Shown here piece by piece: positions 27,545-53,946 of a stretch of DNA of 64,000 bases. Under the pieces are notes generated by a model. That model made no database searches and was not told the origin of the DNA. It was given only the letters and a program-made list of their open reading frames with translations. The translations under genes were made by a program, and so were the position numbers. Origin of the DNA: an uncultured Gammaproteobacteria bacterium. Its GTDB lineage: Bacteria; Patescibacteriota; Microgenomatia; 2-02-FULL-39-11. Location of the stretch: assembly GCA_964520615.1 (NCBI GenBank), contig CAZFNL010000137.1, positions 148,898 to 212,897 of the forward strand. The letters are read 5' to 3'. The first letter of the stretch is position 1; each line of letters opens with the position of its first letter.

Positions 27545-28864
27545 TTATAATATCAAATTCTTTATCCATTCCCCCAACTGGCTCGGCTTTTCAACTACTC
27601 TATCTTTAGTTTCTATTCGAGATATTTCTGCATCTTCACTTTTGACAAAATGTTCGCTCCGGCGGGAAAAGATGAATTCTCCTTTTTCAAGTAAATAAGG
27701 TTCGTATTCATCCCGTAAATACACTGCCGTCTTACCCTCCATCCTGAAAACTCCAAAATTTCTTCCCGAAATATATTTTGGTTGAACCGAAGAATTACGA
27801 AGGATAAGCTGTGAAGCGGACAAATTTTCATTTTGTGAATAGTGAAATGGATAATCTCTGCCTAAAAAAGTCGCCAGGTGAAAAGAGACCATTGGTACTA
27901 GACCAGCTTCAGCTTCAAGCCTGCTAAAAAAAGCAGATGATGCAGTAAACCTGGCGTTGCATTCCGAAATATATATTTTACCGGAGTTTTTTTCCACCAT
28001 AAAATCCAATCCGAAAAAACCTCTGAAACCATCTATAAACATTAATTTCCCTACTTTTTCAGTTATTTCCTTTATCAGCTTATTCTGATCAGCCTCAATA
28101 AAACCAACCAGCCACTGTCTGCCGCAGGTCACACCTTTCTTTTCCCGCAGCTCGGGAATATCGCTTATTTGCAGTGCAACAGGACTCACTAGAATATTTC
28201 CGTCACTCAAAACACAAACATTATTCAATAATGTATAACCATCGATATATTTATTTACTTTAACTGTTGTATAAGGAAATCTGTCTGCTATCTTTTCAAA
28301 GTCATCCTCCGAGCTGATAAAGAAAGTCGTCTTACCAGCCCATCCGTGGGCAAACTGCACTACAAAGGGAAGATTCAATTCCTTGGCCATCATTTCAAAC
28401 TTCAGATCATTTAACTTACCAGTTAATCCCGGAATACTATTTTCTACTATTTTGTCTCTAACCAATTCATAAAAAAGCACCTTATCTTCAAACCGATCGT
28501 TTAGTTCTCTTGTGTTCACCAAAGGTCTATAACCCCTTTTGCTGCATAAGAATTCCACTTTCTTTGACGGCTTAAAAACCAAAATATTTGGACGTTTGCT
28601 GTGTATTTCAATATATTGGGAGACTAAAGGATGTGCCAGAAGGCCTCCGGATGTGGCATAAGATCCCAATTTAACCAATTCTTCATTTTCAGAAAGACAA
28701 AATATATTGGCTCCTTTTTTTCTCAACAGTGGAATTATAGGGTCCGGATACAAACATACTATATGATAATTTGACAATACAGTGTCCAATCCTATACCCC
28801 TTTTTACATCAGGAGTGATGTAAAAAATTTGTTCACCTGAGAAGCTATCTTGCCATTTATTCAT
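27545..28864 (-). CDS. ATP-grasp domain protein (carbamoyl-phosphate-synthase-like subgroup), substrate unknown
   Basis: C-terminal ISECNARFTASSAF parallels the CPSase/biotin-carboxylase motif IEVNPRxSRSSAL. GLDFMVE is upstream of it. 439 aa. Confidence 0.55.
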   Translation of the reverse strand: MNKWQDSFSGEQIFYITPDVKRGIGLDTVLSNYHIVCLYPDPIIPLLRKKGANIFCLSENEELVKLGSYATSGGLLAHPLVSQYIEIHSKRPNILVFKPSKKVEFLCSKRGYRPLVNTRELNDRFEDKVLFYELVRDKIVENSIPGLTGKLNDLKFEMMAKELNLPFVVQFAHGWAGKTTFFISSEDDFEKIADRFPYTTVKVNKYIDGYTLLNNVCVLSDGNILVSPVALQISDIPELREKKGVTCGRQWLVGFIEADQNKLIKEITEKVGKLMFIDGFRGFFGLDFMVEKNSGKIYISECNARFTASSAFFSRLEAEAGLVPMVSFHLATFLGRDYPFHYSQNENLSASQLILRNSSVQPKYISGRNFGVFRMEGKTAVYLRDEYEPYLLEKGEFIFSRRSEHFVKSEDAEISRIETKDRVVEKPSQLGEWIKNLIL

Positions 28865-28877
28865 AACAACCAGAATA

Positions 28878-29798
28878 TTAGTAATTTTTCCCCGTCAAGA
28901 TGCACAAAGGATTCTTATATTTATAACCATTCTTTGCTGCTTTCCTCACCGCCCCCAAAGTAAGACCGCCTTCTATGGAACAGTTATAACCTTTGCCCAA
29001 AAGGTATCTACATTCTCCTTCCGCCTCTTCATCGGATATAACCCAACCAAAACCTTTACTCCTTTCTACAATATCTGATACCTGAAGTTGTCTTGGAGTA
29101 AAACGAGCGACAATCGCATCCACAACACTTTTTTTACGCTCAATAAAATCTCTGTCATATAATCCGGCCAAAGGATGAATAGATTGCGATTGGACAAAAT
29201 GAATGGCAGGATGGTAACCCCACTTCTTGCATCCCATCGAAAAACCAACAAGAGTCGTACCGCTACTGACAGGCAGAAATACAGCGTCCGGCTTTTCCTC
29301 GAAATTGCCTTCTGTAAACAGTTCATAAGCTAAAGTTTCATATCCGAAAAGCGCATTTTCGTCTTTGGATTGTCTGAGATTATATACATTATTCTCCTTT
29401 GCAAACTTAAAAGCATTACTGACTGGTTTATCACTTATCTCCAACCTACATTCTGATTTTTTCAATACTTCAAGTTTTCTTTTGTTTATATTGGGAGAAA
29501 CGAAAACCGTTAACTTGATCCCATGAAGATTGCAATAACAGGCTGCAGATATGGCTGCATTTCCAGATGATGAGATAACTGCAGAATTTATGCCTTTCTC
29601 TTCCAACACTGCCGTTTGATAAGCAAGACTTCTGTCCTTTACGGAACCAGTAGGATTTTCGTATTCGCACTTAAAATAAGTACTATTATCCCTTTTTAGA
29701 GATGTACTTCCCTCACCCAATGTCTTTTGAAAATTCCTCTCTACTTTTGGAAGTAATTTTTGGTATTCCCAAATCCCTTTTTTCACTTGTCTGTCCAT
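28878..29798 (-). CDS. PLP-dependent enzyme, tryptophan-synthase-beta superfamily (cysteine synthase/threonine synthase-like)
   Basis: NPTGSVKDRSL carries the PLP lysine. SSGNAAISAACY is the Gly-rich PLP phosphate loop. Confidence 0.75.
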   Translation of the reverse strand: MDRQVKKGIWEYQKLLPKVERNFQKTLGEGSTSLKRDNSTYFKCEYENPTGSVKDRSLAYQTAVLEEKGINSAVISSSGNAAISAACYCNLHGIKLTVFVSPNINKRKLEVLKKSECRLEISDKPVSNAFKFAKENNVYNLRQSKDENALFGYETLAYELFTEGNFEEKPDAVFLPVSSGTTLVGFSMGCKKWGYHPAIHFVQSQSIHPLAGLYDRDFIERKKSVVDAIVARFTPRQLQVSDIVERSKGFGWVISDEEAEGECRYLLGKGYNCSIEGGLTLGAVRKAAKNGYKYKNPLCILTGKNY

Positions 29799-29821
29799 AT
29801 AAAATATGATTTAATTATAAT

Positions 29822-29998
29822 ATGGATAACCCTTCGGACAAAGACATCAGTGCAAAATGTCCTGAATGTGACACGCCTCTTACCCTTCTTCAAGATACAA
29901 AAGCCGGGCAGGTAGTGGAATGCCCTGCTTGCGGCACTGAAAGCGAAGTTGTTAGCCTCGAGCCTCTGCAGCTCTCCCCTTTGGAGGAAGAGAAATAA
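29822..29998 (+). CDS. LysW-like zinc-ribbon protein (amino-group carrier protein family), 58 aa. Absent from the ORF track because it is <60 aa.
   Basis: MDNPSDKDISAKCPECDTPLTLLQDTKAGQVVECPACGTESEVVSLEPLQLSPLEEEK has two CxxC pairs. Its overall pattern matches Thermus LysW (CPECGAEL...VVxCxxCGAELEVVxLDPLRLEP...EE), but it ends in EEEK rather than EDWGE. Confidence 0.6.
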   Translation: MDNPSDKDISAKCPECDTPLTLLQDTKAGQVVECPACGTESEVVSLEPLQLSPLEEEK

Positions 29999-31388
29999 TT
30001 ATATCTTTCAGCGACTTTTTCCCTTTTATAAATTTTGTATAGAAAAATGCTGCTGCCGGAGAGACAAGAATTGAATCTCCATTTTGCGATTGTAGGAAGC
30101 AATTTCTGAGTGCTGATTCTAAATTATTTTCAATTATCAAATAATCATCGTCTAAACCCTTATTTTTCAAAAAATCCGATAATTGGCTTGACAAAGCGAA
30201 TATTTTTTTAATATTTCCTTTCATTTTTTTAATCCTTTCAAAAAATGCCAGATAATCTATACCTTTTGTATTACCCCCAACAATTAGGAATATACCGTTA
30301 GAAATTCTCTCCAAGGCCGCCATAGTCGCCCAGGGTGTAGTACTTTTGATATCATCATAGATTCCTATACCAGACACTGTATCAATCAATTGAAGCCTCG
30401 CTGGTAATGATTGAGTTTTTCCTAATGACTTTAATATCTCCTTATTTGGAATATTCAATAAATTTGCTACAGTTGATGCAGCAAGTATATTCCCAAAATA
30501 TTGATCACTATTTATATTCTTTAGTATATGGAATGAATTTTGAATACTTATATTGTTCTTATCTTGAGATTTAACGCTGTAATATATGATTTGTGATTTA
30601 ATTTGAGCATCAATATTCCTCAATTCTAAATTGTCATAGTTTAATACGACATAATCACTTTCTGTTTGACGCGATAAAAGAGATAGTTTTAATTGCTTGT
30701 ATCTATCCCAACTCACTTCATCTTGATGATTGGGAAAAAGATTGGTGACTACCGCAATATGGGGACAACGACTTATTCCATCCTGAAGCTGACGGTGGGA
30801 AACTTCAAGCACAAGATAGTCATCTTTTGTCATACCGTCAAGCTTCTCGGCTATCTGAGTCATCCAGGTATCATTCCCTGCAAAATAGACACTTTTACCT
30901 GCTGACTGTAATATGTTAACTATTAAATTTACAACACTACCTTTCCCGACTGTTCCTGTCACGCCTATTATGATTGCCTGGGTCAACTCAAGATAGAGCC
31001 TGGTGAGAGAAAAGAAAGGAATTCTTTTTTTTATTGCCTGCCATAAAGGTGCGTTTTCTTTAGGATAAAGCCTCCAGGACTGGGGAACAAAAATAATATC
31101 GGCTTCCAATACATCTGATAAATAATCTTTTCCGAATCTGCCTTTAACAAGATTAAGATCAGACATGAATTGACTAAACATTCTCTTTCTTTCATCCTTT
31201 GAGACACCCTTATGCCAAAGTTTGTAACTTTTTTCCAATGTCTCAGAAGTTGAAAAATCGTGAACTGTAATATTTCGCACCTCATTCTTCTGAAGAAAAC
31301 GTAGTATTCCACTACCTTCAGAACCCGTAACACCAACAATATGTATTTTTTTACTGTGTAGAGAATCAATAAATTCCGTTACGGCCAT
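29952..31388 (-). CDS. murD: Mur ligase family protein, MurD-like (UDP-MurNAc-L-Ala:D-Glu ligase-like)
   Basis: N-terminal Rossmann IHIVGVTGSEGSGILRFL, Mur P-loop IIGVTGTVGKGS, central LVLEVSHRQL (compare MurD VLELSSFQLE) and VTNLFPNHQD. Its 3' end overlaps the lysW-like gene convergently by 47 bp. Confidence 0.6.
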   Translation of the reverse strand: MAVTEFIDSLHSKKIHIVGVTGSEGSGILRFLQKNEVRNITVHDFSTSETLEKSYKLWHKGVSKDERKRMFSQFMSDLNLVKGRFGKDYLSDVLEADIIFVPQSWRLYPKENAPLWQAIKKRIPFFSLTRLYLELTQAIIIGVTGTVGKGSVVNLIVNILQSAGKSVYFAGNDTWMTQIAEKLDGMTKDDYLVLEVSHRQLQDGISRCPHIAVVTNLFPNHQDEVSWDRYKQLKLSLLSRQTESDYVVLNYDNLELRNIDAQIKSQIIYYSVKSQDKNNISIQNSFHILKNINSDQYFGNILAASTVANLLNIPNKEILKSLGKTQSLPARLQLIDTVSGIGIYDDIKSTTPWATMAALERISNGIFLIVGGNTKGIDYLAFFERIKKMKGNIKKIFALSSQLSDFLKNKGLDDDYLIIENNLESALRNCFLQSQNGDSILVSPAAAFFYTKFIKGKKSLKDIIISLPPKGRAAEARG

Positions 31389-31390
31389 AC

Positions 31391-32119
31391 TTAGGAGAAA
31401 ATTCTTAAACGATAGATTCCGTCTTTTGACTCAGGATGGAAATATTTTCTTCCAAAGTTTTCACCTTTTCGAGTGATTTCTTGCCATTTTTGCTTTTCAA
31501 GAGATTTTGACCAATCCTTTATTTTTATTATCCCTTCATGAACACCATAAATTTCGGTCGATTTAGATGAATGGATATATTTTATTTCCGTGCTATTTTT
31601 TGCAAGTATGACAAGCATGTGCTTTCCTCTCATCATGCGTATGATATCACCCAATTTAACTTCTGAAATCTTTTCTACTGGAACGGCATATTCACTACTT
31701 GTAAACCTGATCACATTGGTTCTATCGATTCCCCCGGAAAATACTTCATCTAAAGAAAATCCCGGCATTGTCTCTTTTGCATAACCCATATCCGAAAGCT
31801 TATCCAATATTCTGTATGATAATCCTGAACAGTCAATACCTATTCTTTCTCTTTTAGCCAGCTTGTATAAACTGTTTTTATCATCCATATATGCTTGCAA
31901 ATCTTTAATATTCCTTAGAATCTCTTCTTTTATTTCACCTGCCGTTCCCTTTCCGTTGGCAAATCCCCTCAGTACCACCTTTCCTTCTCTTATCTTATTC
32001 ATCCAGTAAGGACATGCTATTTCTATTCCATTAATTTCCATCCTCAGATATTCGTCCAAAAAAGGCCTGATTAAACTATAATAGTCATTCATATTCTTAC
32101 CAGAAACTGAGTGAAGCAA
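31391..32119 (-). CDS. Putative NlpC/P60-family cysteine peptidase/amidase
   Basis: IGIDCSGLSYRIL (Cys box) followed by GDIIRM...GKHMLVIL (His box). 242 aa. Confidence 0.4.
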   Translation of the reverse strand: MLHSVSGKNMNDYYSLIRPFLDEYLRMEINGIEIACPYWMNKIREGKVVLRGFANGKGTAGEIKEEILRNIKDLQAYMDDKNSLYKLAKRERIGIDCSGLSYRILDKLSDMGYAKETMPGFSLDEVFSGGIDRTNVIRFTSSEYAVPVEKISEVKLGDIIRMMRGKHMLVILAKNSTEIKYIHSSKSTEIYGVHEGIIKIKDWSKSLEKQKWQEITRKGENFGRKYFHPESKDGIYRLRIFS

Positions 32120-32735
32120 AAGCTATTCCTGTCCCTAAAAGCGTCCCTCCCAATACATCTGATGTCCAGTGCTCAGCAAGATAAATCCTACTGATAAACA
32201 TCAGAATAATAAAAGAAAATATTAATAAAGCTATTATTTTCTTAGTTCTCTTACTCCACCCAGACGTAAAAACTATAAAAAAGGCGATAATAGCGATAAA
32301 GGAAGTTCGAGCCATATGCCCCGAAGGATAGGAAAAATTTGTATCAATTATCGAACCGCTTGGCAAGCTGAAACTCAAGGCGTATCTATGGAACACTTCA
32401 GGAGTGACGGGATGGTTTATATACATTTTGCCAAAAACCTCAAAGACGAAAATAAGAAAATAAAGAGCAAGTCCGATAAAAATATGATGCCTTTTGAATA
32501 GGAAATAAAAAAACAACAATATTAAAATTAAAATTGTCGCTTCCGTTGAACCTGCTAGCGAAAACAAAGAAAAGGGCATATCAAATAATCTACTCAAGTG
32601 ATTTTGAAGAATAAGAAGAAAATTGTAATCAAAAGCGCGGAAAATATCTCTGTTTACAAGTATGCTTAGAGAGAGAAAGCACAGTATAAGGATTAATGCC
32701 AATCTGATAAAAACCCATCTCAGCCTGTCAGTCAT
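32097..32735 (-). CDS. PAP2-family membrane phosphatase (undecaprenyl-diphosphatase/BcrC-like)
   Basis: PSGH and SRx5Hx3D-like motifs (YPSGHMARTS, AEHWTSDVLGG). 6 TM. Confidence 0.7.
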   Translation of the reverse strand: MTDRLRWVFIRLALILILCFLSLSILVNRDIFRAFDYNFLLILQNHLSRLFDMPFSLFSLAGSTEATILILILLFFYFLFKRHHIFIGLALYFLIFVFEVFGKMYINHPVTPEVFHRYALSFSLPSGSIIDTNFSYPSGHMARTSFIAIIAFFIVFTSGWSKRTKKIIALLIFSFIILMFISRIYLAEHWTSDVLGGTLLGTGIAFASLSFW

Positions 32736-41417: not shown

Positions 41418-44400
41418 CTATTCAATATTCTCTGTTATTTGTTCATCAAATTTCTTCGTCTCAGGATAAAATATCACAAATAATATGCCAAAACCCAACA
41501 ATATAAACCCTATATACTCCAGATATTGTGGTAAATAAACGATAATTATTGTCGCTTGTTGCTGATCGCTGGTCGCTGGTTGTTGAAGCTGCCAACCATT
41601 TTCCCAATTGTTTACCAAAACATGATTTTTCAACTCTGTCCCAAACCAGAACGGGAAAGCTTCTAAAAGAAAACCCTTAATTCCTGATTCTTTATTCTTT
41701 ATTCCTACGCTATACGCTTTCCATCCATCATCATAACTTTGTGAAAATGCTAAGATCGTGTTTTTTTCTACCATATTTGAATTAATTTGAACAGAGTAAT
41801 CTGAAATATTATTCTTAGTGAATTGCAGAATTATTTTATTTTCATTTTTCATTTCTGAGGTAGAAGAAGTCAAACTAATTTCCGTAAGGTATTTATAAGG
41901 TATTGGATCTAAAGAGATATCTTTTATTTCATTTACCGAGGGTATCTGATTGAAAGAGCTATCTGTAAATTGTATTCTAACTCCATCATCAAACTGATAA
42001 ATAGGCGGCAAAATATATCTTGAAATGTCGAAGTTTGTACTTCTCGACATAAGAGTATACACATAAGTGGTATCGTTTTTTACAGTAGTAGTCTTCAGAG
42101 TTAGCGGAAATCCGTTAATTAACTTAGTACTTATTGATAACAAATATCCTACGCCGGAAGGTAAATTATTTTGTTCAAATAAATAATTTAACAAATAATT
42201 TTTGGAATATAATAGTAGACTTTTATCATTGTCCGGATAAATATGTTCTGACAGGTAGAAGTCCCCATCAACAGGATTATATTCCCGAGGGTTCCTTCTA
42301 TACTGGTTGTCGTTTATAAGATTACTCCACTCATAACTTCCAGAGATTTTAGGTACATCCACTTTAATTATGGAATCTTTATCCAAGTTAAGTTTAAATC
42401 CTCTTACCGGATTGCTATTTATCGATGTCGTATCGAAATTAAACGATGATATATAAGGGTACGAAAAAACTTCTATATTTTGATAAGATATTGCTTTCTC
42501 TTCAAGTGCTGATTTATCATACCCCGGTTCAAGAATAAATGAAAAAGTATTCGTATTGTTTACTCCGCCGCTATTCTCAAAAAATTCATTATTCCTGAGA
42601 AAATTTGAGGAAAAACTCACTTTGTTATTATTTGACTGGTTTATACAATTACCTGAGGATAAATTTCTTAGGCAGAATTTTGGAAATTCATCGTATTTGG
42701 ATTTATAGATAAAGCTTACCCTATCCAAGCTTTTGGTCGGCAAGGTGGTTAATGGAAAGCTGTATGGTACACAAGTAGGAGTACCTTGCGCAGCTATTGT
42801 CAGTATGTTATCCGATACTTCTGCCGAGTTGAACTTGCCTGGCTTTCCCGAATCGCAATCAACCGCAGTACTGAATGCTTGCGGTTCCAAATCCTGAATC
42901 GTAGGATTGCTTCCCGAATATAGAGATACGGAATTACCAATTAGACTATTAATTAAATATGCATCACCAATAAACCCGTAATTATAAGAAGGGTTTATTA
43001 TGCTTAAAAAGTCCCTATTATTTATACTAAGTAAATAATAGTTCCCGCTAAATTGTACCGGAATAGGAATTGCGAATTGCTTGGATATAGGATTATTATT
43101 GACTTCCACATTGTCTACGTATACTTCCGGATTTTTCAATTGAAAGTTTAAAATTAAGCTGCCACCTTCTATCTTCGCGTAAATAGCAAAAGGCAAAATT
43201 TTTTCTTCATTTATTAAAGAGGGGATATTCAAATAATAATTACCTTTTGGTATTTCCTTCGTAAAACTGGTATCATTGGCTGTGTCCGAAACCGAAAATT
43301 TGACCTCATCCTGGAATCGATTTGTAAATAATGACTCAAAAGGATAAATGTAATCAATTTTTGGACTAGTTTTATCTTGATAATAATTTTCTACGGATCT
43401 ATACAAATTGTCCGTATTACTAAACCTTTCGGTCTTTGCGGTCTGGGGAATGTTATTGAAAAGGCTAAGTGTCCCGGATTCGGAATTATTATTTAGTTTA
43501 TATATGCTTACTGTGCCAAAATTAGCTACCTTAACAAATAGCGGATTATTGACCAGTAGCTCTTTCTGCTGATTTATCCATTTTAAGCTATTGTAATCAG
43601 ACGGAATATAACTTTCATCATACAATATATAAGTAATACCGTATTTTTTTATTGTTGAATTAAATAGACTTTGGTCTCTAGTTCTCAAATCATAAATTAA
43701 TTCCCAATAATACTGCTCCAGGTAATTACTCCAGACGTCAAAGGCTCTATCCATAATCGGCTGTTCTATTCCATACCAAAGAAATCCTGATCCTGTTAGT
43801 CCCCATTTATATGAACCCCATCCCCAATAAGTATCCTGAGGAAGATTCATTATTCTGGCGTTGGTGTCTCTTGTCTTAAAGTAATCAAATACCTGAAAAT
43901 AATAATCAGGAATTTTGATTCTTAACCGATCGGAGAATAAATGTCCGGTAAATACCGGTAATCCGTATATCAATACCATCAATAGGAACAGGAGGAATAT
44001 TGCTTTCTCTATTCTTGTTTTTGTTCGACCGATAAATTCGAAAATAACCGATAAACCAAATCCCAAAAGAAGCGTAAATACTACAGTTGTGGGGACAATG
44101 AATTTGGTAAATGGATTGCGGATTATCTGGTTTATAAGGGGTGCTTGCCGTAATAAAAAGTTAGCCGTGGAAATAATTGGAGTATCACTTAAAAAAACTA
44201 CCGCACTCAAGATCGACATTCCGGCAAAATATTTGCTCTTCTTTCCCCGCAACACTCCCAATAGCATCAAGAGAAAAAATATTATTCCTTCTATTCTAAC
44301 TGGTAAAAGTGAATAATAATCCCTCCATACCTGCATCATATAGACGGGTTTTCCAGGAGTCTGTGTATCATCCTGAGTATCCAGATTAAATCCTTTCAGA

Positions 44401-45251
44401 AATATAAAATCACTTATGTGGCCTCTTTTAAGATTCGTTTCAAAAAACCTGTCATTGTTCATTCTGTTATTCATGGCATTTTGAGTTACTGAAACACTGG
44501 TAAAAATAAAGTAAGCATTCGGAAGAAGCCAGAAGGAATTAATAAGGAAAATAGTTCCGGCAATCACAAAAATTTTCTTTAAAGTCAAAAAGCTCTTATT
44601 TGTGAAGAAATAAATCAGAAATATAATCGAAATAAAAAGCAAATATACAAGAAATATTGTTTCCACATACGCTTGAGGAATCGCTAGTATATTTACCAAG
44701 ACAAACCATATAAAAGCTTTTTTGTTTGGTTTACTTAAATAATTAAATAATCCCCATAACTCCCATGGAAAGAACCCCCAAAAAGTACTGAAAGGTTCAA
44801 AGGGAAAGAAAAAATTCTGTATGGTCCCCAGATTTAACAGATAGAATAAACTGCAAAGCAGCGCTATCTTTCTTACTGATGAGTCTTTTAATCTATCGCT
44901 AAGAAAGAATGTTACGAGTTTGTAGATTCCCAACACACCGATAATAAGCATCAGATATTGATAAAAATATCTTAAAAAGTTTACCGGAATAATTATTGAA
45001 AAAACCGACAATAATAATTGTCTTGGCAGGTCTGCAGCATGAGCCATTCCGCCAAGAAGTCCCAATCCCTGATATTCCTGCCAGACAGCAAAAATAGACC
45101 TGTTTATATTCATGGAAAAATTAAATTCAGGGTGCAAATTATCCCAACCGGCCAGCCATGTCCCCGGCTTATAGTTGGTAAAACAGATTACAGTAACAAC
45201 TGATATGAGGAATAATAAATAAAAAAAATGTTTATTCTTAATAATTGACAT
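41418..45251 (-). CDS. Giant (1277 aa) polytopic membrane protein, putative GT-C/AftD-like glycosyltransferase with large extracytoplasmic domain
   Basis: About 450-aa N-terminal multi-TM block, then about 750 aa of beta-rich Asn/Ser/Tyr-rich sequence, then a C-terminal TM. The architecture resembles DUF3367/AftD-type proteins. Confidence 0.4.
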   Translation of the reverse strand: MSIIKNKHFFYLLFLISVVTVICFTNYKPGTWLAGWDNLHPEFNFSMNINRSIFAVWQEYQGLGLLGGMAHAADLPRQLLLSVFSIIIPVNFLRYFYQYLMLIIGVLGIYKLVTFFLSDRLKDSSVRKIALLCSLFYLLNLGTIQNFFFPFEPFSTFWGFFPWELWGLFNYLSKPNKKAFIWFVLVNILAIPQAYVETIFLVYLLFISIIFLIYFFTNKSFLTLKKIFVIAGTIFLINSFWLLPNAYFIFTSVSVTQNAMNNRMNNDRFFETNLKRGHISDFIFLKGFNLDTQDDTQTPGKPVYMMQVWRDYYSLLPVRIEGIIFFLLMLLGVLRGKKSKYFAGMSILSAVVFLSDTPIISTANFLLRQAPLINQIIRNPFTKFIVPTTVVFTLLLGFGLSVIFEFIGRTKTRIEKAIFLLFLLMVLIYGLPVFTGHLFSDRLRIKIPDYYFQVFDYFKTRDTNARIMNLPQDTYWGWGSYKWGLTGSGFLWYGIEQPIMDRAFDVWSNYLEQYYWELIYDLRTRDQSLFNSTIKKYGITYILYDESYIPSDYNSLKWINQQKELLVNNPLFVKVANFGTVSIYKLNNNSESGTLSLFNNIPQTAKTERFSNTDNLYRSVENYYQDKTSPKIDYIYPFESLFTNRFQDEVKFSVSDTANDTSFTKEIPKGNYYLNIPSLINEEKILPFAIYAKIEGGSLILNFQLKNPEVYVDNVEVNNNPISKQFAIPIPVQFSGNYYLLSINNRDFLSIINPSYNYGFIGDAYLINSLIGNSVSLYSGSNPTIQDLEPQAFSTAVDCDSGKPGKFNSAEVSDNILTIAAQGTPTCVPYSFPLTTLPTKSLDRVSFIYKSKYDEFPKFCLRNLSSGNCINQSNNNKVSFSSNFLRNNEFFENSGGVNNTNTFSFILEPGYDKSALEEKAISYQNIEVFSYPYISSFNFDTTSINSNPVRGFKLNLDKDSIIKVDVPKISGSYEWSNLINDNQYRRNPREYNPVDGDFYLSEHIYPDNDKSLLLYSKNYLLNYLFEQNNLPSGVGYLLSISTKLINGFPLTLKTTTVKNDTTYVYTLMSRSTNFDISRYILPPIYQFDDGVRIQFTDSSFNQIPSVNEIKDISLDPIPYKYLTEISLTSSTSEMKNENKIILQFTKNNISDYSVQINSNMVEKNTILAFSQSYDDGWKAYSVGIKNKESGIKGFLLEAFPFWFGTELKNHVLVNNWENGWQLQQPATSDQQQATIIIVYLPQYLEYIGFILLGFGILFVIFYPETKKFDEQITENIE

Positions 45252-46725
45252 AGATTCCTTGATAAGGATCTAACGCTTTCAGTCCGGCGATAATCAATTT
45301 TTTTTGTTCAACCGGGATATAACCGCACTGATTTACAAGATTATTAAGTTCGCCTGATAAAACATATGCTTTGGTACAATATCCTCTGTATTTATAAAAC
45401 CCTGATGTCGGGTGATCCAGATCAGTCTGATTAGTCCTATCAACAAATATCTCCGGGGTTGGGGTATATAAGGAAGGAAAATTGTCCAAAATATACCCGG
45501 CATAGTAATTATTCCTCAACGAATTTCTGAAGTCCGGATTTACCCACCCGTTCATATTCATGGATAAAGTTTGCAAACCCAAGAGAATAAATAATGTAAT
45601 AGAAGTAATAATATTCAGCTTTCGTTCGTGAAGAAAATAAATAGCAAAAGCTATAAAAAGGGGAAGTATGTAAACAATATGTCTAGTAGGACCGTAACCT
45701 GCAGTACCATAATTCCACGCGGGATTAGTCTGGTAAAAAAAGGCAGTTATAAAATAAATTGCACTTAGAAATATGGCTTTATTGTCAATAATAATCCTTT
45801 TAATCAAATAATAAAATCCGGTCACAAGCGTAAACGGCGCGTACCAAAAAAGTCCCATATTCAAATCAAAAAACTGTTCATAAAGTTTCCGCAAACTAAT
45901 GTTCTGCAGCCCGAATCCGTTAATCTCAGTCCAGCCATTTTGTATATTTGTCCATGGAGTCAACAATCCAAACTGGATATAGCTCAGAAAATAAGGAATC
46001 AGTATAAGAATAAAAACTAGTAAAGGCCTGAATAACCATTCATACCTTCTGAAATTTATCTCCTGTACCGGATTCTTTCGATGCTTCAAAAGATAATCAG
46101 CTACCATATAAATGGTTAACGCAAAGGAAATAATAATTAACGGTTGGCTTTGCCAGGAAGAGAGAGCGGATAAAAAGGCAGAAAGAAAATACTCTTTATG
46201 TAAAAATGCAAATATACTGAGAAATATTAAGCAAATATAGTAAATCTCAGGACCCGGCCAGCCAAGAAAAAAAATCAGCGGGGAAAAGTATACAAGAAAT
46301 AACAAAAAAAGCCTTTCACCCGGCTCTTTCACATATTTTTTGAAAATAAAAATAAGCGCTGCCGCCAATATGATTATATTTGTCACGGGAAATGAAACCA
46401 GAGGATTTATACCAAATATTGAGAGAAGTATTCTGGAAGGAATAAGAAGGTAAGAGTAAAAAACAAAATGGACAGGATACCTGACGTTGTTTTTTCCTGT
46501 CATATAATACTGCGGATCTGAAAAGTAAGTTGCCGGCAAATATTTTTCTATCTCTACTTTATCGTTATTTCTTAGGGAAACATCTCCGTGATTGAGGATT
46601 GACACGGTCATCCCGTAATATTCCGCAACATCACCTGCTATCTGCGCTTTCGCAAAAACGATAAAATAGAATCCTAACAACAAAATTGATGCAATAAGAA
46701 TCAACCAGGGAATTTTCGCGGACAT
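45238..46725 (-). CDS. Polytopic membrane protein, function unknown (possible GT-C)
   Basis: 495 aa with about 12 TM. It overlaps the giant gene by 14 bp, so they are co-transcribed. Confidence 0.4.
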   Translation of the reverse strand: MSAKIPWLILIASILLLGFYFIVFAKAQIAGDVAEYYGMTVSILNHGDVSLRNNDKVEIEKYLPATYFSDPQYYMTGKNNVRYPVHFVFYSYLLIPSRILLSIFGINPLVSFPVTNIIILAAALIFIFKKYVKEPGERLFLLFLVYFSPLIFFLGWPGPEIYYICLIFLSIFAFLHKEYFLSAFLSALSSWQSQPLIIISFALTIYMVADYLLKHRKNPVQEINFRRYEWLFRPLLVFILILIPYFLSYIQFGLLTPWTNIQNGWTEINGFGLQNISLRKLYEQFFDLNMGLFWYAPFTLVTGFYYLIKRIIIDNKAIFLSAIYFITAFFYQTNPAWNYGTAGYGPTRHIVYILPLFIAFAIYFLHERKLNIITSITLFILLGLQTLSMNMNGWVNPDFRNSLRNNYYAGYILDNFPSLYTPTPEIFVDRTNQTDLDHPTSGFYKYRGYCTKAYVLSGELNNLVNQCGYIPVEQKKLIIAGLKALDPYQGIYVNY

Positions 46726-51057: not shown

Positions 51058-52293
51058 ATGAAACCGAAGTACCATCCTTTTTTAGCCTTACAATTCCGAG
51101 ATTTCAGACTATTGTGGCTGGGGATGCTCATATCCAGAATAGGATCTGAAATGCAGGTGGTTGCCCTAAACTGGCAGATTTATCTTATCACCGGTTCCGC
51201 TCTTTCCCTTGGACTTATAGGGTTATCAAGATTTTTACCGATTATCTTTTTTTCACTGGCGGGAGGAATGATAGCGGATATCGCGGACCGAAAAAAACTG
51301 ATGATTGCGGCACAAACCGTATCTATGGCCACCGCTTTTATTTTCGCGATCACCACGTTTACCCACAATATCAGTCCCCTCCTCATCTATTTTCTCCTGG
51401 CGATAAACTCCATTGCTACTTCTTTTGAGACTCCCGCACGCCAGTCACTAGTACCCGCGCTCGTGCCTGAAAAATATTTCATCAACGCTGTCAGTCTCAA
51501 TACCATCATGTGGCAATCAGCCATGGTAATTGGCCCTACTATTGCGGGATTTATTATCGCTTTACACGGAGTCGGCGCGGTTTACACTCTCAATGCCTTT
51601 TCTTTTCTGGCGGTAATTTTTTCCCTTTTTGCCATATGTCCTCCGAAATCACCCCGGCCAATCAAGGTTGACTTTAATCTTGATACTGTAAGAGATGGAA
51701 TAAGATTTGTCAAAAACACTCCCATTATCTATTCCACTATGCTTTTGGACTTTTTTGCCACATTTTTTGCCTCAGCCACTGTCCTTTTGCCAATATTTGC
51801 CAAAGATATACTCAAAGTCGGACCCCAAGGGATGGGCATACTTTATGCGTCTGCCTCAATAGGAGCAGTTACCGCCGGTCTCTTTGTCTCCTCTTTGGGC
51901 CACATAAAACACCAGGGGAAAATACTACTTTTAGCAGTTTCAGTTTATGGCCTGGCCACGATTCTTTTTGGCATATCAAAATCATTTTATCTCTCGATAC
52001 TATTCCTCTTTCTGACCGGAGCAGGCGACGTCATCAGTACAATAATAAGAAATACGATTAGACAACTGGCTACACCTGACCATATAAGAGGCAGAATGGT
52101 TTCAATTAATATGATATTTTTTATGGGCGGGCCGCAGCTGGGTGAAACAGAAGCCGGAATTACGGCAGCGATGCTGGGCGCTCCTCTCTCTGTCGTCCTG
52201 GGAGGAGCGGGAACTCTGACCGCAGTGGGGCTTTTAGCTTTGCTTATTCCAAAACTGAGAAATTATCAGGGAGATGAGTTAATTACAAAATAG
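51058..52293 (+). CDS. MFS transporter
   Basis: 411 aa with 12 TM and a DRKKLM motif after TM2 (MFS signature). Confidence 0.8.
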   Translation: MKPKYHPFLALQFRDFRLLWLGMLISRIGSEMQVVALNWQIYLITGSALSLGLIGLSRFLPIIFFSLAGGMIADIADRKKLMIAAQTVSMATAFIFAITTFTHNISPLLIYFLLAINSIATSFETPARQSLVPALVPEKYFINAVSLNTIMWQSAMVIGPTIAGFIIALHGVGAVYTLNAFSFLAVIFSLFAICPPKSPRPIKVDFNLDTVRDGIRFVKNTPIIYSTMLLDFFATFFASATVLLPIFAKDILKVGPQGMGILYASASIGAVTAGLFVSSLGHIKHQGKILLLAVSVYGLATILFGISKSFYLSILFLFLTGAGDVISTIIRNTIRQLATPDHIRGRMVSINMIFFMGGPQLGETEAGITAAMLGAPLSVVLGGAGTLTAVGLLALLIPKLRNYQGDELITK

Positions 52294-52363
52294 TAAAAAA
52301 GTGGCGGGCGGTGTGCTAAAAACAGATAGATGTAATTCATTAGTTGATAATTGTTATTAGTAT

Positions 52364-53872: not shown

Positions 53873-53946
53873 TACAAGCTAAATCTCAAAGCTCAAATCA
53901 AAATGTAATTAGCGTAAATCTTGCAATCGAACATTTGAGATAAAAA

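What the first reader, a model, noticed from the sequence alone, without database searches (positions are those of the whole stretch)
27545..32735. Unlisted LysW-like carrier-type zinc-ribbon gene embedded between ATP-grasp, PLP-enzyme, MurD-like ligase and NlpC/P60 genes
A 58-aa ORF at 29822..29998 (+), below the ORF-track cutoff, encodes CPECDTPL...VVECPACGTESEVVSLEPLQLSPLEEEK. Its two CxxC pairs, the EVV-x-L-(D/E)PL-x-L-x-P spacing and the acidic tail closely track the LysW/ArgW amino-group carrier protein of the AAA-lysine and arginine pathways. None of the canonical partners (LysX/Z/Y/J/K) is present. Instead it is wedged between four genes. These are a CPSase-like ATP-grasp enzyme, a cysteine-synthase/threonine-synthase-family PLP enzyme (22 bp away, divergent), a MurD-like Mur ligase whose 3' end overlaps it convergently by 47 bp, and a putative NlpC/P60 gamma-glutamyl-type hydrolase. 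In LysW systems an ATP-dependent ligase attaches the substrate to the carrier's C-terminal Glu, and enzymes then act on the tethered substrate. A ligase, a PLP beta-replacement enzyme and an isopeptide-cleaving hydrolase would make a coherent non-canonical carrier-protein pathway. This is hypothetical. The carrier ends in ...EEEK rather than ...EDWGE, so the attachment chemistry would have to differ (penultimate Glu or side-chain). A duller alternative is that MurD, the P60 hydrolase and the PAP2 phosphatase are ordinary peptidoglycan genes and the LysW-like ORF is an unrelated zinc ribbon.
Basis: partly seen in the sequence, partly recalled or inferred. Interest (0 to 1): 0.6.

Follow-up and report, generated by a model that had tools for sequence, protein, structure and literature searches.

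The report
LysW-like carrier module coupled to MurD
The tiny unlisted gene is real: it encodes a LysW-type zinc-ribbon carrier ending in an invariant ...EEK, which travels with an ATP-grasp ligase, a PLP enzyme, an NlpC/P60 hydrolase and the cell-wall ligase MurD in ultrasmall bacteria and Dormibacteria, and probably supplies MurD's D-glutamate by an undescribed route.

Summary
The 58-aa ORF at 29822..29998 (+) passes Pfam's LysW zinc-ribbon model and matches solved LysW proteins.

- **Conservation.** In 66 of 66 species-level Microgenomates genomes with enough flank, it lies antisense next to the same ThrC-like PLP enzyme and ATP-grasp ligase. A cytoplasmic NlpC/P60-like hydrolase is present in 60 of 66.
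- **Not canonical LysW.** 71 of 74 distinct copies end in -EEK, with a terminal Lys rather than Glu. No LysX/Z/Y/J/K gene is nearby, and the ATP-grasp resembles PurK and biotin carboxylase, not RimK/LysX.
- **Link to MurD.** In some relatives the module sits in the dcw cluster between mraY and ftsW, with or without murD. P60–MurD and ATP-grasp–P60 fusions exist. Contigs of 76% G+C, apparently Dormibacteria, carry the same five genes in the same order. An orthologous murD in a related genome is followed by glutamate racemase murI instead.

Best reading (inferred, not shown): a carrier-protein route that supplies D-glutamate to MurD in place of MurI. L-Glu would be tethered to the terminal Lys, inverted by the PLP enzyme and released by the P60 hydrolase. 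I found nothing published on it. New variant of a known kind; interest is high.

The parts
29822..29998 (+). LysW-like zinc-ribbon carrier protein, 58 aa, of the 'EEK' subfamily: CPxC...CxxC, an acidic tail, invariant C-terminal Lys
   Evidence: PF21344 scores 51.7 bits against GA 27. TIGR01206 lysW scores 41.5, below its 53.2 cut-off. A family profile hits solved LysW at E 7e-9. 71 of 74 distinct homologues end in xEEK and the median pI is 4.2. dN/dS is about 0.27-0.29. The gene is present and antisense in 66 of 66 loci.
28878..29798 (-). Fold-type II PLP enzyme, distantly threonine-synthase-like, 306 aa. PLP lysine K54 lies in GSVKDR; the SSSGNAA loop and R142/S144 are invariant.
   Evidence: PF00291 at E 9e-43. 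The best NCBIfam hits are ThrC models, far below their cut-offs. The family profile hits ThrC 2zsj at E 4e-25, followed by Ser dehydratases, Ser/Asp racemases, CysK and SbnA. It is adjacent to the carrier in 66 of 66 loci.
27545..28864 (-). ATP-grasp ligase, 439 aa, with an ExNxR core motif. Structurally nearest PurK, biotin carboxylase and PurT, not RimK/LysX.
   Evidence: PF02655 at E 5e-7 and PRK06524-like at 117 bits. No PDB sequence relative. The AF2 model has pLDDT 91. The best Foldseek matches are PurK, BC and PurT at TM 0.55-0.63. The family is spread over Gottesman-, Roizman- and Shapirobacteria and CPR3.
29952..31388 (-). [quoted passage not shown] Its 3' end overlaps the carrier gene by 47 bp.
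   Evidence: TIGR01087 scores 185.7, below its 211.95 cut-off. Orthologues pass the cut-off: L094, inside a dcw cluster, at 258.7, and L090, next to murI, at 278.5. The N-terminal domain is shared by all of them. Natural P60–MurD fusions exist: P0159, P0169 and P0207. It is the only Mur ligase in the window.
31391..32092 (-). Cytoplasmic, divergent NlpC/P60-type cysteine hydrolase. Probable start is the ATG at 32092; the mechanical ORF extends to the TTG at 32119. Catalytic Cys97 lies in GIDCSG, with His167 and His183.
   Evidence: The window protein has only a weak Pfam hit (E 0.08). 27 of 39 family members hit PF00877, best E 2.6e-6. Cys and His are invariant in the alignment, and the third position is H, D or E. 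hhalign against the canonical P60 domain of the L091 fusion gives 86% probability, E 5e-6. The equivalent genes in L093 and L094 pass Pfam. It is present in 60 of 66 loci.
32097..32735 (-). PAP2-family phosphatase, undecaprenyl-diphosphatase-like. A lineage-specific neighbour, not part of the conserved core.
   Evidence: PF01569 at E 1.8e-12, with a weak SepP-like hit. It is adjacent only in Gottesmanbacteria-type loci and absent from the module in Shapirobacteria-type, L089, L091, L093 and L094 contexts.

Best explanation
The small ORF encodes a carrier protein that shares LysW's zinc-ribbon domain but belongs to a separate subfamily. This subfamily has a short acidic tail that ends in an invariant lysine (-EEK-COOH).

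**The module.** The carrier works with a divergently transcribed PLP enzyme and an ATP-grasp ligase, which are always present. An intracellular NlpC/P60 hydrolase is usually present. MurD is adjacent in some lineages and fused to the hydrolase in a few proteins. The module belongs to peptidoglycan-precursor synthesis. Its ancestral place is the murD slot of the dcw cluster, and in the window's lineage it has moved out together with murD.

**Most likely function.** It supplies MurD's amino-acid substrate, D-glutamate, in place of glutamate racemase.

**Proposed steps (all inferred).**
1. The ATP-grasp activates the side-chain carboxyl of L-Glu and joins it to the epsilon-amino group of the carrier's terminal Lys.
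2. The PLP enzyme binds the free alpha-amino-acid end of the tethered Glu and inverts C-alpha.
3. The P60 hydrolase, whose family typically cleaves gamma-D-glutamyl amide bonds, releases D-Glu for MurD. Alternatively it cleaves after MurD has added UDP-MurNAc-L-Ala to the tethered D-Glu.

ATP hydrolysis and a D-specific hydrolase would make the inversion one-directional.

**What is shown:** homology of each part, the conserved gene set, the fusions, the dcw/murD context and the murI alternative. **What is inferred:** the substrate, the attachment site and each reaction.
For: **A fixed gene set, recovered from three independent seeds.**
- Seeded with the ATP-grasp, 66 species-representative loci had enough flank. 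PALP was present in 66 of 66, the LysW-like gene in 66 of 66 (always on the opposite strand), P60-like in 60 of 66 and MurD adjacent in 11 of 66.
- Seeded with the carrier, the partners were again present in L003 and in the 76%-GC loci L092 and L093.
- Seeded with MurD, they were present in L091, L094 and L095.
- The set survives rearrangement: in L089 the P60 gene lies after the ATP-grasp.
- Fusions link the parts: P60–MurD in P0159, P0169 and P0207, and ATP-grasp–P60 in L091.

**Link to murD and peptidoglycan.**
- In Shapirobacteria-type genomes the module lies between mraY and ftsW. The local Mur ligases classify as MurE, MurC and MurF, so MurD is the one missing locally.
- In L094 and L095 the order is mraY ... 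P60–MurD–LysW–PALP–ATP-grasp–ftsW–murG–murC, and that MurD passes the TIGR01087 cut-off.

**In-place alternative.**
- In L090 the orthologous MurD is followed by an overlapping murI. Its product carries the ACNTSS and GCTHYP motifs of a glutamate racemase. This MurD is 42.8% identical to the module-linked MurD of L094, the closest pair compared.
- No murI homologue occurs in 1.5 Mb of module-bearing loci or in the window.

**Carrier features.** 71 of 74 distinct copies end in xEEK. The carrier is acidic (pI 4.2), while PALP, MurD and P60 are basic (pI 9.0-9.3).

**Precedents.**
- PLP enzymes act on Glu or Asp tethered to a carrier protein through the side-chain carboxyl, as in BtrI/J/K (PMC11350588).
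- A murD-linked, ATP-driven, one-directional alternative to MurI is known: MurD2/MurL (PMC8788868).
- Fold-type II PLP enzymes include Ser and Asp racemases, which the family profile hits at E 1e-20 or better.
Against: - No reaction, substrate or attachment site has been observed.
- The PLP enzyme's closest relatives are threonine synthases, not racemases. A beta- or gamma-replacement role with a phosphorylated substrate is at least as natural.
- I could not scan whole genomes. It is therefore unknown whether module-bearing genomes really lack murI or D-amino-acid transaminase, and whether Shapirobacteria-type genomes carry murD elsewhere.
- The murD–murI adjacency rests on one locus (L090).
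- Six of 66 loci lack a nearby P60 gene, so release may work differently there.
- L094 carries an extra Amidohydro_3 gene next to P60. From my own memory, its best-matching family (PRK09061) includes N-acyl-D-glutamate deacylases. That would suggest an N-linked rather than side-chain-linked Glu, which a PLP enzyme could not process.
- The ATP-grasp's structural neighbours (PurK, biotin carboxylase, PurT) activate bicarbonate or formate, not amino acids.
- It is not obvious why a five-protein route would be kept in place of a single racemase.
Confidence: 0.42

Rival explanations
1. The same carrier module makes or processes a different peptidoglycan building block. Candidates are a diamino acid for position 3 (a DAP, lanthionine or cystathionine-type product of PLP beta/gamma-replacement on a tethered residue), a modified glutamate, or a short peptide assembled on the carrier tail. 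The encoded terminal Lys would then mimic the product-loaded carrier and be trimmed off by the hydrolase, much as Mec matures MetO.
For: The PLP enzyme is most similar to threonine synthases and also hits SbnA and CysK/CysM, which are replacement enzymes. The module lies in the dcw cluster with murE, murF and murC nearby. Carriers whose terminus needs maturing by the releasing hydrolase are known for MetO/Mec (bioRxiv 10.1101/2024.10.14.618325). The MurE of L084 best matches the DAP-type model NF001126, the only specific MurE model whose cut-off it reaches, while these organisms are generally thought to have little amino-acid biosynthesis (my own knowledge).
Against: The specific and repeated partner is MurD, not MurE. 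This shows in the adjacency in four unrelated contexts, in the P60–MurD fusions and in the murD slot. The in-place alternative next to the orthologous murD is murI, which points to D-Glu. No kinase, reductase or aminotransferase is present to build a diamino acid.
Confidence: 0.2
2. The module is a regulatory modification cycle rather than a biosynthetic one. The ATP-grasp adds a group to the tail of the small acidic protein and the P60 amidase removes it, like glutathionylspermidine synthetase/amidase. The modified or unmodified protein then tunes MurD, and with it cell-wall precursor flux.
For: An ATP-grasp–P60 fusion (L091) has the same domain pairing as E. coli Gsp synthetase/amidase. Gsp amidase is also the top, though weak, structural match of the P60-like model (E 0.03). 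P60–MurD fusions exist. The antisense orientation of the carrier gene is strictly conserved (66 of 66).
Against: This gives no role to the PLP enzyme, which is present in every locus (66 of 66). All known LysW homologues are covalent substrate carriers, not regulators (my own knowledge of the LysW/ArgW/AmCP literature). The murI alternative suggests a metabolic function rather than a regulatory one.
Confidence: 0.1
3. The carrier is a sulfur carrier, functionally like CysO or MetO. The ATP-grasp would activate the C-terminal carboxylate so that it becomes a thiocarboxylate. The ThrC-like PLP enzyme would use it with O-phosphoserine or O-phosphohomoserine to make cysteine or homocysteine on the carrier, and the P60 peptidase would release it, as Mec does.
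For: ThrC-like MetM together with the carrier MetO and the hydrolase Mec is an established pathway, and MetM is often misannotated as threonine synthase (bioRxiv 10.1101/2024.10.14.618325). The part list maps one to one: activator, PLP enzyme, carrier, hydrolase.
Against: The carrier is a zinc ribbon ending in Lys, not a beta-grasp protein ending in Gly-Gly. No E1-like, rhodanese or desulfurase gene appears in any of the contexts examined. The link to MurD and the dcw cluster, and the fusions, would have no explanation. I know of no ATP-grasp enzyme that forms a protein thiocarboxylate.
Confidence: 0.06
4. It is an ordinary LysW/ArgW of the alpha-aminoadipate lysine or arginine pathway, as public annotation says ('lysine biosynthesis protein LysW').
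For: NCBI names the 86%-identical homologue and the Dormibacteria homologues LysW. The globular domain is homologous to LysW.
Against: The score is below the TIGR01206 equivalog cut-off (41.5 against 53.2) and far below NF041070 (37.8 against 75). The C-terminus is -EEK, not a terminal Glu. No LysX/RimK-type ligase, LysZ, LysY, LysJ or LysK is present in the 64-kb window or in the Pfam-annotated neighbourhoods of relatives.
Confidence: 0.02
5. It is a chance ORF, or an unrelated zinc ribbon that merely lies between cell-wall genes.
For: The ORF is short and overlaps the 3' end of murD by 47 bp. Promoter-like matches in the region are no more frequent than in shuffled sequence.
Against: The ORF is intact in 74 distinct versions whose synonymous sites are mostly saturated. 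dN/dS is about 0.27. The cysteines and the C-terminus are invariant. It sits in the same position and orientation in 66 of 66 loci and in 76%-GC genomes.
Confidence: 0.01

Closest known systems
LysW/ArgW amino-group carrier proteins with LysX/ArgX, LysZ, LysY, LysJ and LysK (Thermus, Sulfolobus, Thermococcus; AmCP systems of Streptomyces)
   Same: The zinc-ribbon globular domain is homologous (PF21344; PDB 3wwl and 5k2m). Both have an acidic flexible C-terminal tail. The logic is shared: an ATP-grasp ligase loads the carrier, enzymes act on the tethered substrate and a hydrolase releases the product.
   Different: The tail is shorter and ends in an invariant Lys rather than Glu. The ATP-grasp is PurK/biotin-carboxylase-like, not RimK/LysX-like. 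The modifying enzyme is a fold-type II PLP enzyme, in place of kinase, reductase and aminotransferase. The hydrolase is an NlpC/P60 cysteine enzyme, not the M20 metallopeptidase LysK. The context is the dcw cluster and MurD, not lysine or arginine genes.
MurD2/MurL alternative route to the D-Glu residue of peptidoglycan (Xanthomonas, Micromonospora; PMC8788868)
   Same: The genes are linked to a murD-type ligase. ATP is used. The role is that of a replacement for glutamate racemase in organisms lacking it, as proposed here.
   Different: In that route MurD2 adds L-Glu to the nucleotide precursor and MurL epimerises it there. No carrier protein, PLP enzyme or hydrolase is involved. I did not test for MurL homologues here.
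Butirosin AHBA pathway BtrI/BtrJ/BtrK (also CtaD-F, FlvL-O; PMC11350588)
   Same: Glu is ligated through its side-chain carboxyl to a small carrier protein, and a PLP enzyme then works on the free alpha-amino-acid end of the tethered Glu.
   Different: That carrier is a phosphopantetheinyl ACP, giving a thioester rather than an amide to Lys. The PLP enzyme is a decarboxylase of a different fold. It belongs to secondary metabolism, not cell-wall synthesis.
CysO/CysM/Mec and MetO/MetM/Mec/MoeZ thiocarboxylate pathways (bioRxiv 10.1101/2024.10.14.618325)
   Same: A small carrier protein, a fold-type II (ThrC/CysM-like) PLP enzyme and a hydrolase that frees the amino acid from the carrier's C-terminus.
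   Different: Those carriers are beta-grasp proteins ending in Gly-Gly. Activation is by an E1-like adenylating enzyme and the chemistry is sulfur transfer. None of this is seen here.
Glutathionylspermidine synthetase/amidase (E. coli GspSA)
   Same: An ATP-grasp ligase is paired, and in L091 fused, with a CHAP/NlpC-P60-type cysteine amidase acting on the amide that the ligase makes.
   Different: The domain order is reversed. The substrates are small molecules, and there is no carrier protein and no PLP enzyme.

Membership tests
LysW/ArgW amino-group carrier protein (TIGR01206, NF041070, PF21344) | Zinc-ribbon globular domain with two CxxC pairs, homologous to LysW | tested here: met
   PF21344 scores 51.7 bits against GA 27. 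A profile hits 3wwl_A at E 7e-9 and 5k2m_E at E 5e-8. The four Cys are conserved in nearly all of the 74 homologues.
LysW/ArgW amino-group carrier protein (TIGR01206, NF041070, PF21344) | Score above the curated equivalog cut-off | tested here: not met
   TIGR01206 scores 41.5 against a 53.2 cut-off, and NF041070 scores 37.8 against 75.
LysW/ArgW amino-group carrier protein (TIGR01206, NF041070, PF21344) | C-terminal Glu (EDWGE-type tail) whose gamma-carboxyl takes the substrate's amino group | tested here: not met
   71 of 74 distinct homologues end in xEEK, and the other three in EQK, ETK or EEKG. The Thermus LysW alignment stops 6 residues before its own C-terminus.
LysW/ArgW amino-group carrier protein (TIGR01206, NF041070, PF21344) | Partner genes lysX/argX (RimK-type ATP-grasp), lysZ, lysY, lysJ and lysK | tested here: not met
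   None is present in the 64-kb window or in the Pfam-annotated neighbourhoods of relatives. Whole genomes could not be scanned.
LysW/ArgW amino-group carrier protein (TIGR01206, NF041070, PF21344) | Covalent loading of a substrate on the C-terminal residue | not testable with these tools
   Needs intact-protein mass spectrometry of the carrier after incubation with the ATP-grasp, ATP and candidate amino acids.
[quoted passage not shown] | Score above the equivalog cut-off of 211.95 bits | tested here: inconclusive
   The window protein scores 185.7 and the L093 protein 199.1, both below the cut-off. Orthologues pass it: L094 at 258.7 and L090 at 278.5. All share one N-terminal domain type.
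[quoted passage not shown] | Position in the dcw cluster between mraY and ftsW | tested here: inconclusive
   Met for the orthologue in L094 and L095. Not met in the window, which has no other dcw gene. In Shapirobacteria-type clusters the slot holds the module without murD.
[quoted passage not shown] | Specificity for D-Glu. The discriminating residues are Asp182 and Lys348 of E. coli MurD versus Glu and Arg in MurD2 (PMC8788868). | tested here: inconclusive
   By eye against E. coli motifs recalled from memory, the Lys348-equivalent position appears to be K in the window, N in L093, A in L091 and Q in L090. The Asp182-equivalent appears to be Asn in all four. No inference is possible.
NlpC/P60 cysteine hydrolases (PF00877) | Catalytic Cys-His-(His/Asp/Glu) triad in the conserved order | tested here: met
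   C97 (in GIDCSG) and H167 are invariant, and the third position is H, D or E across 39 sequences. Cys and His align with those of a canonical P60 domain (hhalign 86% probability, E 5e-6).
NlpC/P60 cysteine hydrolases (PF00877) | Score above Pfam's gathering score | tested here: not met
   The window protein scores 13.4 bits against GA 23. 27 of 39 family members hit at E below 0.1, best 2.6e-6. The positional equivalent in L093 scores 62.2 bits, and those in L091 and L094 carry unmarked precomputed PF00877 hits.
NlpC/P60 cysteine hydrolases (PF00877) | Papain-like alpha+beta fold | tested here: inconclusive
   The AF2 model rests on only 4 sequences, with mean pLDDT 71. The top Foldseek matches are Gsp amidase and CHAP endolysins, but at E 0.03 or worse and TM below 0.3.
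Threonine synthase (ThrC) | Fold-type II PLP enzyme with the PLP lysine in S-x-K-D-R | tested here: met
   PF00291 at E 9e-43. K54, D55 and R56 are invariant.
Threonine synthase (ThrC) | Score above the ThrC equivalog cut-offs, and ThrC's phosphate-binding residues | tested here: not met
   The best hit, PRK08329, scores 107 bits against a 358 cut-off, and TIGR00260 scores 38 against 167. In the alignment to 2zsj the residues I recall (from memory) as ThrC's phosphate-binding N-S and Arg are replaced. An invariant R142 sits two positions away.
RimK/LysX-type ATP-grasp ligases | Sequence or fold closest to RimK/LysX (PF08443) | tested here: not met
   No PF08443 hit for the window protein. The structural neighbours are PurK, biotin carboxylase and PurT.
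CysO/MetO/ThiS-type sulfur carriers | Beta-grasp fold, C-terminal Gly-Gly and an E1-like activating enzyme nearby | tested here: not met
   The protein is a zinc ribbon ending in Lys. No ThiF/MoeB-family gene appears in any annotated neighbourhood.

The most novel reading that the evidence does not exclude
This would be a third, previously unrecognised way to make the D-glutamate of peptidoglycan, after MurI/D-amino-acid transaminase and MurD2/MurL. In it a 'reverse-polarity' LysW holds the carboxyl group of L-Glu on its terminal lysine while a PLP enzyme inverts it. A D-specific NlpC/P60 amidase then hands the product to MurD. ATP drives the process in one direction. The route would be shared by Microgenomates (CPR) and Dormibacteria and would be ancestral to the murD slot of their dcw cluster.
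Probability: 0.35. Interest if true: 0.9.

Novelty: new variant of a known kind. Interest (0 to 1): 0.78.

Why it matters
- **Carrier chemistry.** LysW-type carriers are known only from lysine, arginine and a few secondary-metabolite pathways. They always use a terminal glutamate to protect an amino group. A widespread subfamily with an invariant terminal lysine, different partner enzymes and a home in the cell-division/cell-wall cluster would extend carrier-protein chemistry to peptidoglycan synthesis.
- **An open question about ultrasmall bacteria.** It is unclear how these organisms, with their minimal metabolism, obtain the non-protein amino acids of their walls. This module offers a concrete, testable answer.
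- **Annotation.** These genes are now annotated as 'lysine biosynthesis protein LysW', which suggests a lysine pathway that the contexts examined do not support.
- **Evolution.** Sharing of the five-gene cluster between Microgenomates and 76%-GC contigs, apparently Dormibacteria, may bear on proposals that the two groups are related (my own recollection of published phylogenies, not tested here).
- **Drug targets.** As with MurD2/MurL, a lineage-specific step in wall synthesis is a potential selective target.

Tried and rejected
**Readings rejected**
- Canonical LysW pathway: below the equivalog cut-off, wrong C-terminus, no partner genes.
- 'MurD-like ligase loads the carrier because its N-terminal domain is aberrant.' I considered this when TIGR01087 failed to cover the N-terminus of the window and L093 proteins. 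I rejected it because the murI-linked, cut-off-passing MurD of L090 has the same N-terminal domain, 40% identical over 150 aa.
- Reading D- versus L-Glu specificity from the MurD/MurD2 discriminating residues: the positions vary within this subfamily, so they are uninformative.

**Searches that gave little or nothing**
- Looking for a dcw cluster or a second Mur ligase in the window: none found.
- Sequence search of the ATP-grasp against PDB: no hits with the single sequence, and only weak core-motif hits with a profile.
- The structure of the P60-like protein rested on a 4-sequence alignment. The model was mediocre and the fold search non-significant.
- Promoter and terminator scan: not above shuffled expectation.
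- Literature: no paper in the library links LysW-like proteins with CPR, MurD or D-Glu.

**Failed or unavailable calls**
- Two look-ups of window proteins, meant to annotate the window flanks, found no exact record. Pfam scans replaced them.
- The first metagenome query alignment was too diverse to use.
- The paper on Saccharimonas MurI is not held.

**Not attempted.** Co-folding of the carrier with its partners, because chimeric or locus-derived sequences are not accepted by the structure tool.

Full report
**1.
Its neighbours are as described:
- a divergent PLP-enzyme gene (28878..29798, -) 23 bp away;
- an ATP-grasp gene (27545..28864, -);
- a MurD-like gene (29952..31388, -) whose 3' end overlaps the small ORF by 47 bp;
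- a P60-like ORF (31391..32119, -);
- a PAP2 gene (32097..32735, -).

The small protein passes Pfam's Zn_ribbon_LysW model, at 51.7 bits against a gathering score of 27. A profile of its family finds the solved LysW proteins of Thermus (3wwl_A, E 7e-9), Thermococcus (5k2m_E, E 5e-8) and, weakly, Sulfolobus (3vpb_E, E 0.016). It falls short of NCBI's LysW equivalog cut-offs: TIGR01206 scores 41.5 against 53.2, and NF041070 scores 37.8 against 75.

**2. It is a real gene under selection.**
The organism is a member of the Patescibacteria (CPR), Microgenomates group. An 86%-identical homologue lies in a 'Patescibacteria group bacterium' assembly, GCA_023379265.1, with the same gene order.

I fetched 80 loci from species-representative genomes, seeded with the ATP-grasp protein. 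From these and three loci fetched earlier I extracted 74 distinct versions of the small ORF. The cysteines of the two CxxC pairs are conserved in nearly all of them. Synonymous sites are mostly saturated. Against the closest relative dN/dS is 0.29, and the median is 0.27 over 160 pairs with unsaturated dS.

**3. It is not a canonical LysW.**
- 71 of the 74 sequences end in xEEK, and the other three in EQK, ETK or EEKG. The terminal residue is therefore a conserved lysine. In LysW/ArgW the attachment point is a terminal glutamate (my knowledge of that literature).
- The tail is also shorter: the alignment with Thermus LysW ends six residues before that protein's C-terminus.
- No RimK/LysX-type ligase, amino-acid kinase, semialdehyde dehydrogenase, class-III aminotransferase or M20 peptidase occurs in the window. 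None occurs in the Pfam-annotated neighbourhoods of relatives either.
- An exhaustive profile search of 1.84 billion representatives gave 1052 hits at E of 1e-3 or better. Of the best 150, 36 end in EEK and a separate set ends in the canonical ...EDWGE. EEK is thus a distinct subfamily, not noise.

**4. The conserved gene set.**
Sixty-six loci of the species-representative scan had at least 2.6 kb of flank upstream of the ATP-grasp gene. Among them:

| Neighbour | Loci |
|---|---|
| PLP enzyme | 66 |
| LysW-like gene (always on the opposite strand) | 66 |
| P60-like gene | 60 |
| MurD orthologue adjacent | 11 |

In the six loci without P60, the carrier gene abuts genes whose sizes fit mraY upstream and ftsW and murG downstream (size and position only).

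Two other seeds converge on the same set:
- **Seeded with the carrier:** L003 and two contigs of 76% G+C, L092 and L093.
- **Seeded with MurD:** L091, L094 and L095.

L089 keeps the four genes in a different order, with P60 after the ATP-grasp, among unrelated neighbours.

L093 reproduces the window's arrangement exactly: P60 (PF00877, 62 bits), MurD-like, LysW(+) ending EEEK, PALP, ATP-grasp. Its flanks are DnaJ and VWA/MoxR genes. Related high-GC EEK-type carriers (P0380 and P0381 and their cluster members) are named Candidatus Dormibacteria in public records. The carrier nearest to L092 (P0347) is instead labelled as a Micrarchaeia archaeon, which looks like a binning error at 77% G+C.

**5. 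The individual enzymes.**
- **ATP-grasp.** It has no sequence relative in the PDB. A confident AlphaFold model (pLDDT 91) is closest to PurK, biotin carboxylase and PurT, at TM 0.55-0.63. It carries the ExNxR core motif typical of that branch (plus my knowledge of those enzymes). It is not RimK/LysX-like.
- **PLP enzyme.** It is fold-type II, with an invariant S-x-K-D-R lysine. Its profile is closest to threonine synthases (2zsj, E 4e-25). Serine dehydratases, serine and aspartate racemases, cysteine synthases and SbnA follow. It is far below every ThrC equivalog cut-off.
- **P60-like protein.** It has no evident signal peptide (by inspection of the N-terminus). It has an invariant GIDCSG cysteine, an invariant histidine, and H, D or E at the third triad position. 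27 of 39 members hit PF00877. Its profile aligns the catalytic residues with the canonical P60 domain of the L091 fusion (hhalign 86%, E 5e-6). A structure built on four sequences was too weak to add more than a hint, with Gsp amidase and CHAP domains on top at E 0.03. The alignment and the sequence indicate that the gene starts at the ATG at 32092, five bases after the PAP2 stop.

**6. The link to MurD and the cell-wall cluster.**
- **Shapirobacteria-type genomes.** The four-gene module lies inside the dcw cluster between mraY and ftsW-murG. The Mur ligases around it classify as MurE, MurC and MurF, so the gene missing from its usual slot is murD.
- **L094 and L095.** The slot holds the whole set: mraY, two extra genes, P60, MurD, LysW(-), PALP, ATP-grasp, ftsW, murG, murC. 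That MurD passes the TIGR01087 cut-off at 258.7 bits.
- **The window's lineage (Gottesmanbacteria type).** The same five genes, plus PAP2, have left the dcw cluster. The window contains no other dcw gene or Mur ligase.
- **Fusions.** Three database proteins of 680-711 aa are in-frame P60–MurD fusions. In L091 the ATP-grasp is fused to a canonical P60 domain.
- **N-terminal domain.** The divergent N-terminal domain of the window's MurD is shared by all these MurDs, including one that passes the cut-off and sits next to murI. It is therefore a lineage trait and not a sign of a new substrate.

**7. The clue to function.**
In L090 the orthologous MurD scores 278.5 bits. It is 42.8% identical to the module-linked MurD of L094, which is the closest pair among those compared. 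It is followed, with overlapping stop and start codons, by a typical glutamate racemase gene whose product carries the ACNTSS and GCTHYP motifs. No murI homologue occurs in the 1.5 Mb of module-bearing loci or in the window.

Next to the same ligase, some genomes therefore have murI and others have the carrier module. This is the pattern expected for non-orthologous displacement, and it points to D-glutamate, MurD's substrate, as the product.

A murD-linked, ATP-dependent, one-directional alternative to MurI already exists in other bacteria: MurD2/MurL (PMC8788868). Such replacements are therefore not without precedent.

**8. Proposed mechanism (inferred).**
1. The ATP-grasp joins the gamma-carboxyl of L-Glu to the epsilon-amino group of the terminal Lys.
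2. The PLP enzyme acts on the free alpha-amino-acid end and inverts C-alpha.
3. The P60 hydrolase releases D-Glu to MurD. Its relatives typically cleave gamma-D-glutamyl amide bonds (my knowledge of the family). Alternatively it cleaves after MurD has acylated the tethered D-Glu.

Points in favour:
- This explains why the lysine is invariant.
- It explains why a PLP enzyme, which needs a free amine, can act on a tethered substrate.
- It explains why ligase and hydrolase, and hydrolase and MurD, are found fused.
- PLP enzymes working on Glu tethered through its side chain to a carrier protein are documented for BtrI/J/K (PMC11350588).
- The carrier is acidic (median pI 4.2) and PALP, MurD and P60 are basic (pI 9.0-9.3). 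This resembles LysW systems but is weak evidence in an AT-rich genome.

**9. What speaks against this, and the rivals.**
Weaknesses of the main model:
- Nothing biochemical is shown.
- The PLP enzyme looks more like a replacement enzyme than a racemase.
- The murI alternative rests on one locus.
- I could not scan whole genomes for murI, dat or a second murD.
- Six loci lack P60.
- L094 has an additional Amidohydro_3 gene whose best family is PRK09061. I recall that family as containing N-acyl-D-glutamate deacylases. That fits D-Glu as product but suggests an N-linked intermediate.

Rivals:
- The module makes another wall-specific amino acid, with the encoded Lys acting as a product mimic. This is comparable to MetO maturation by Mec (10.1101/2024.10.14.618325).
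- It is a regulatory modification cycle on MurD.
- It is a thiocarboxylate-type sulfur carrier.

The last two explain fewer of the observations. A canonical LysW role and a chance ORF are excluded.

**10. Novelty.**
Six searches of the paper library found nothing that links LysW-like proteins to CPR bacteria, MurD, the dcw cluster or D-glutamate. Public annotation calls these genes 'lysine biosynthesis protein LysW', which the contexts contradict.

The system uses the known carrier-protein logic, but with a different attachment residue, different enzyme families and a different biological role. I rate it a new variant of a known kind, and of high interest because it is widespread, sharply defined and directly testable.

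Noticed in passing
window 51058..54804: A second PLP plus ATP-grasp pair, unrelated to the module. An MFS transporter (51058..52293) is followed by a 502-aa protein with a partial cystathionine-gamma-synthase-family match (52364..53872). Next comes a 285-aa GshB-type ATP-grasp whose best NCBIfam match is D-cycloserine synthetase DcsG, at 157.6 bits against a 360 cut-off (53947..54804). It may be a small amino-acid-ligating or antimetabolite cassette.
   Followed up: partly
L084:1366-2151, L086:5537-6133, L087:430-1212: In Shapirobacteria-type dcw clusters, a 200-260-aa arginyltransferase-like (ATE_C, GNAT-fold) gene sits between murE and murC. It might be a Fem-like aminoacyl-tRNA transferase that adds a branch to the stem peptide.
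   Followed up: no
L094:2530-5252 (also L095:1052-3773): Between mraY and the P60–MurD–LysW–PALP–ATP-grasp set lie a 378-aa protein with no family match and a 524-aa Amidohydro_3 protein. The latter's best match is PRK09061, at 195 bits, below cut-off. From memory, that family includes N-acyl-D-glutamate deacylases. It may be an accessory hydrolase of the module.
   Followed up: partly
window 31391..32119: The mechanical ORF starts at the TTG at 32119 and overlaps PAP2. Homologues start at the residue aligned with Met10. An ATG lies at 32092, five bases after the PAP2 stop codon (32099..32097). The P60-like protein is therefore probably 233 aa.
   Followed up: yes
proteins P0250-P0397: Many LysW-like hits are 115-190-aa proteins with two or three tandem zinc ribbons and long basic or acidic tails, for example P0267-P0273. 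They belong neither to the EEK type nor to the EDWGE type. Their function and context are unknown.
   Followed up: no
window 29782..29841: The carrier gene and the PLP-enzyme gene are only 23 bp apart and divergent. The best promoter-like matches for each lie inside the other's first codons: minus strand 29841..29814 (TTGTCC-16-TATAAT) and plus strand 29782..29810. The scan as a whole is not above shuffled expectation. The carrier gene is antisense to its partners in 66 of 66 loci, and in the window and several relatives its 3' end overlaps the converging gene. This may matter for expression balance.
   Followed up: partly
loci L008, L009, L012 and others; protein P0347: Several public MAGs that carry this CPR-type locus are titled 'uncultured Gammaproteobacteria bacterium'. 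A carrier found on 77%-GC contigs is labelled 'Candidatus Micrarchaeia archaeon'. These are probably labelling or binning errors.
   Followed up: no
window 41418..46725: Two large adjacent ORFs on the minus strand, 1277 aa (41418..45251) and 495 aa (45238..46725), have no Pfam match at E 1e-5 or better. They lie between a signal-peptidase-like gene and a glycosyltransferase.
   Followed up: no
L088:5575-9596: A distant paralogue of the ATP-grasp (P0126, Beckwithbacteria, 27% identity) lies in a different context. It sits beside a 7TM_transglut protein and an ATPgrasp_ST/RimK-like ligase, with no LysW-like, PALP or P60 gene. It belongs to another system.
   Followed up: partly
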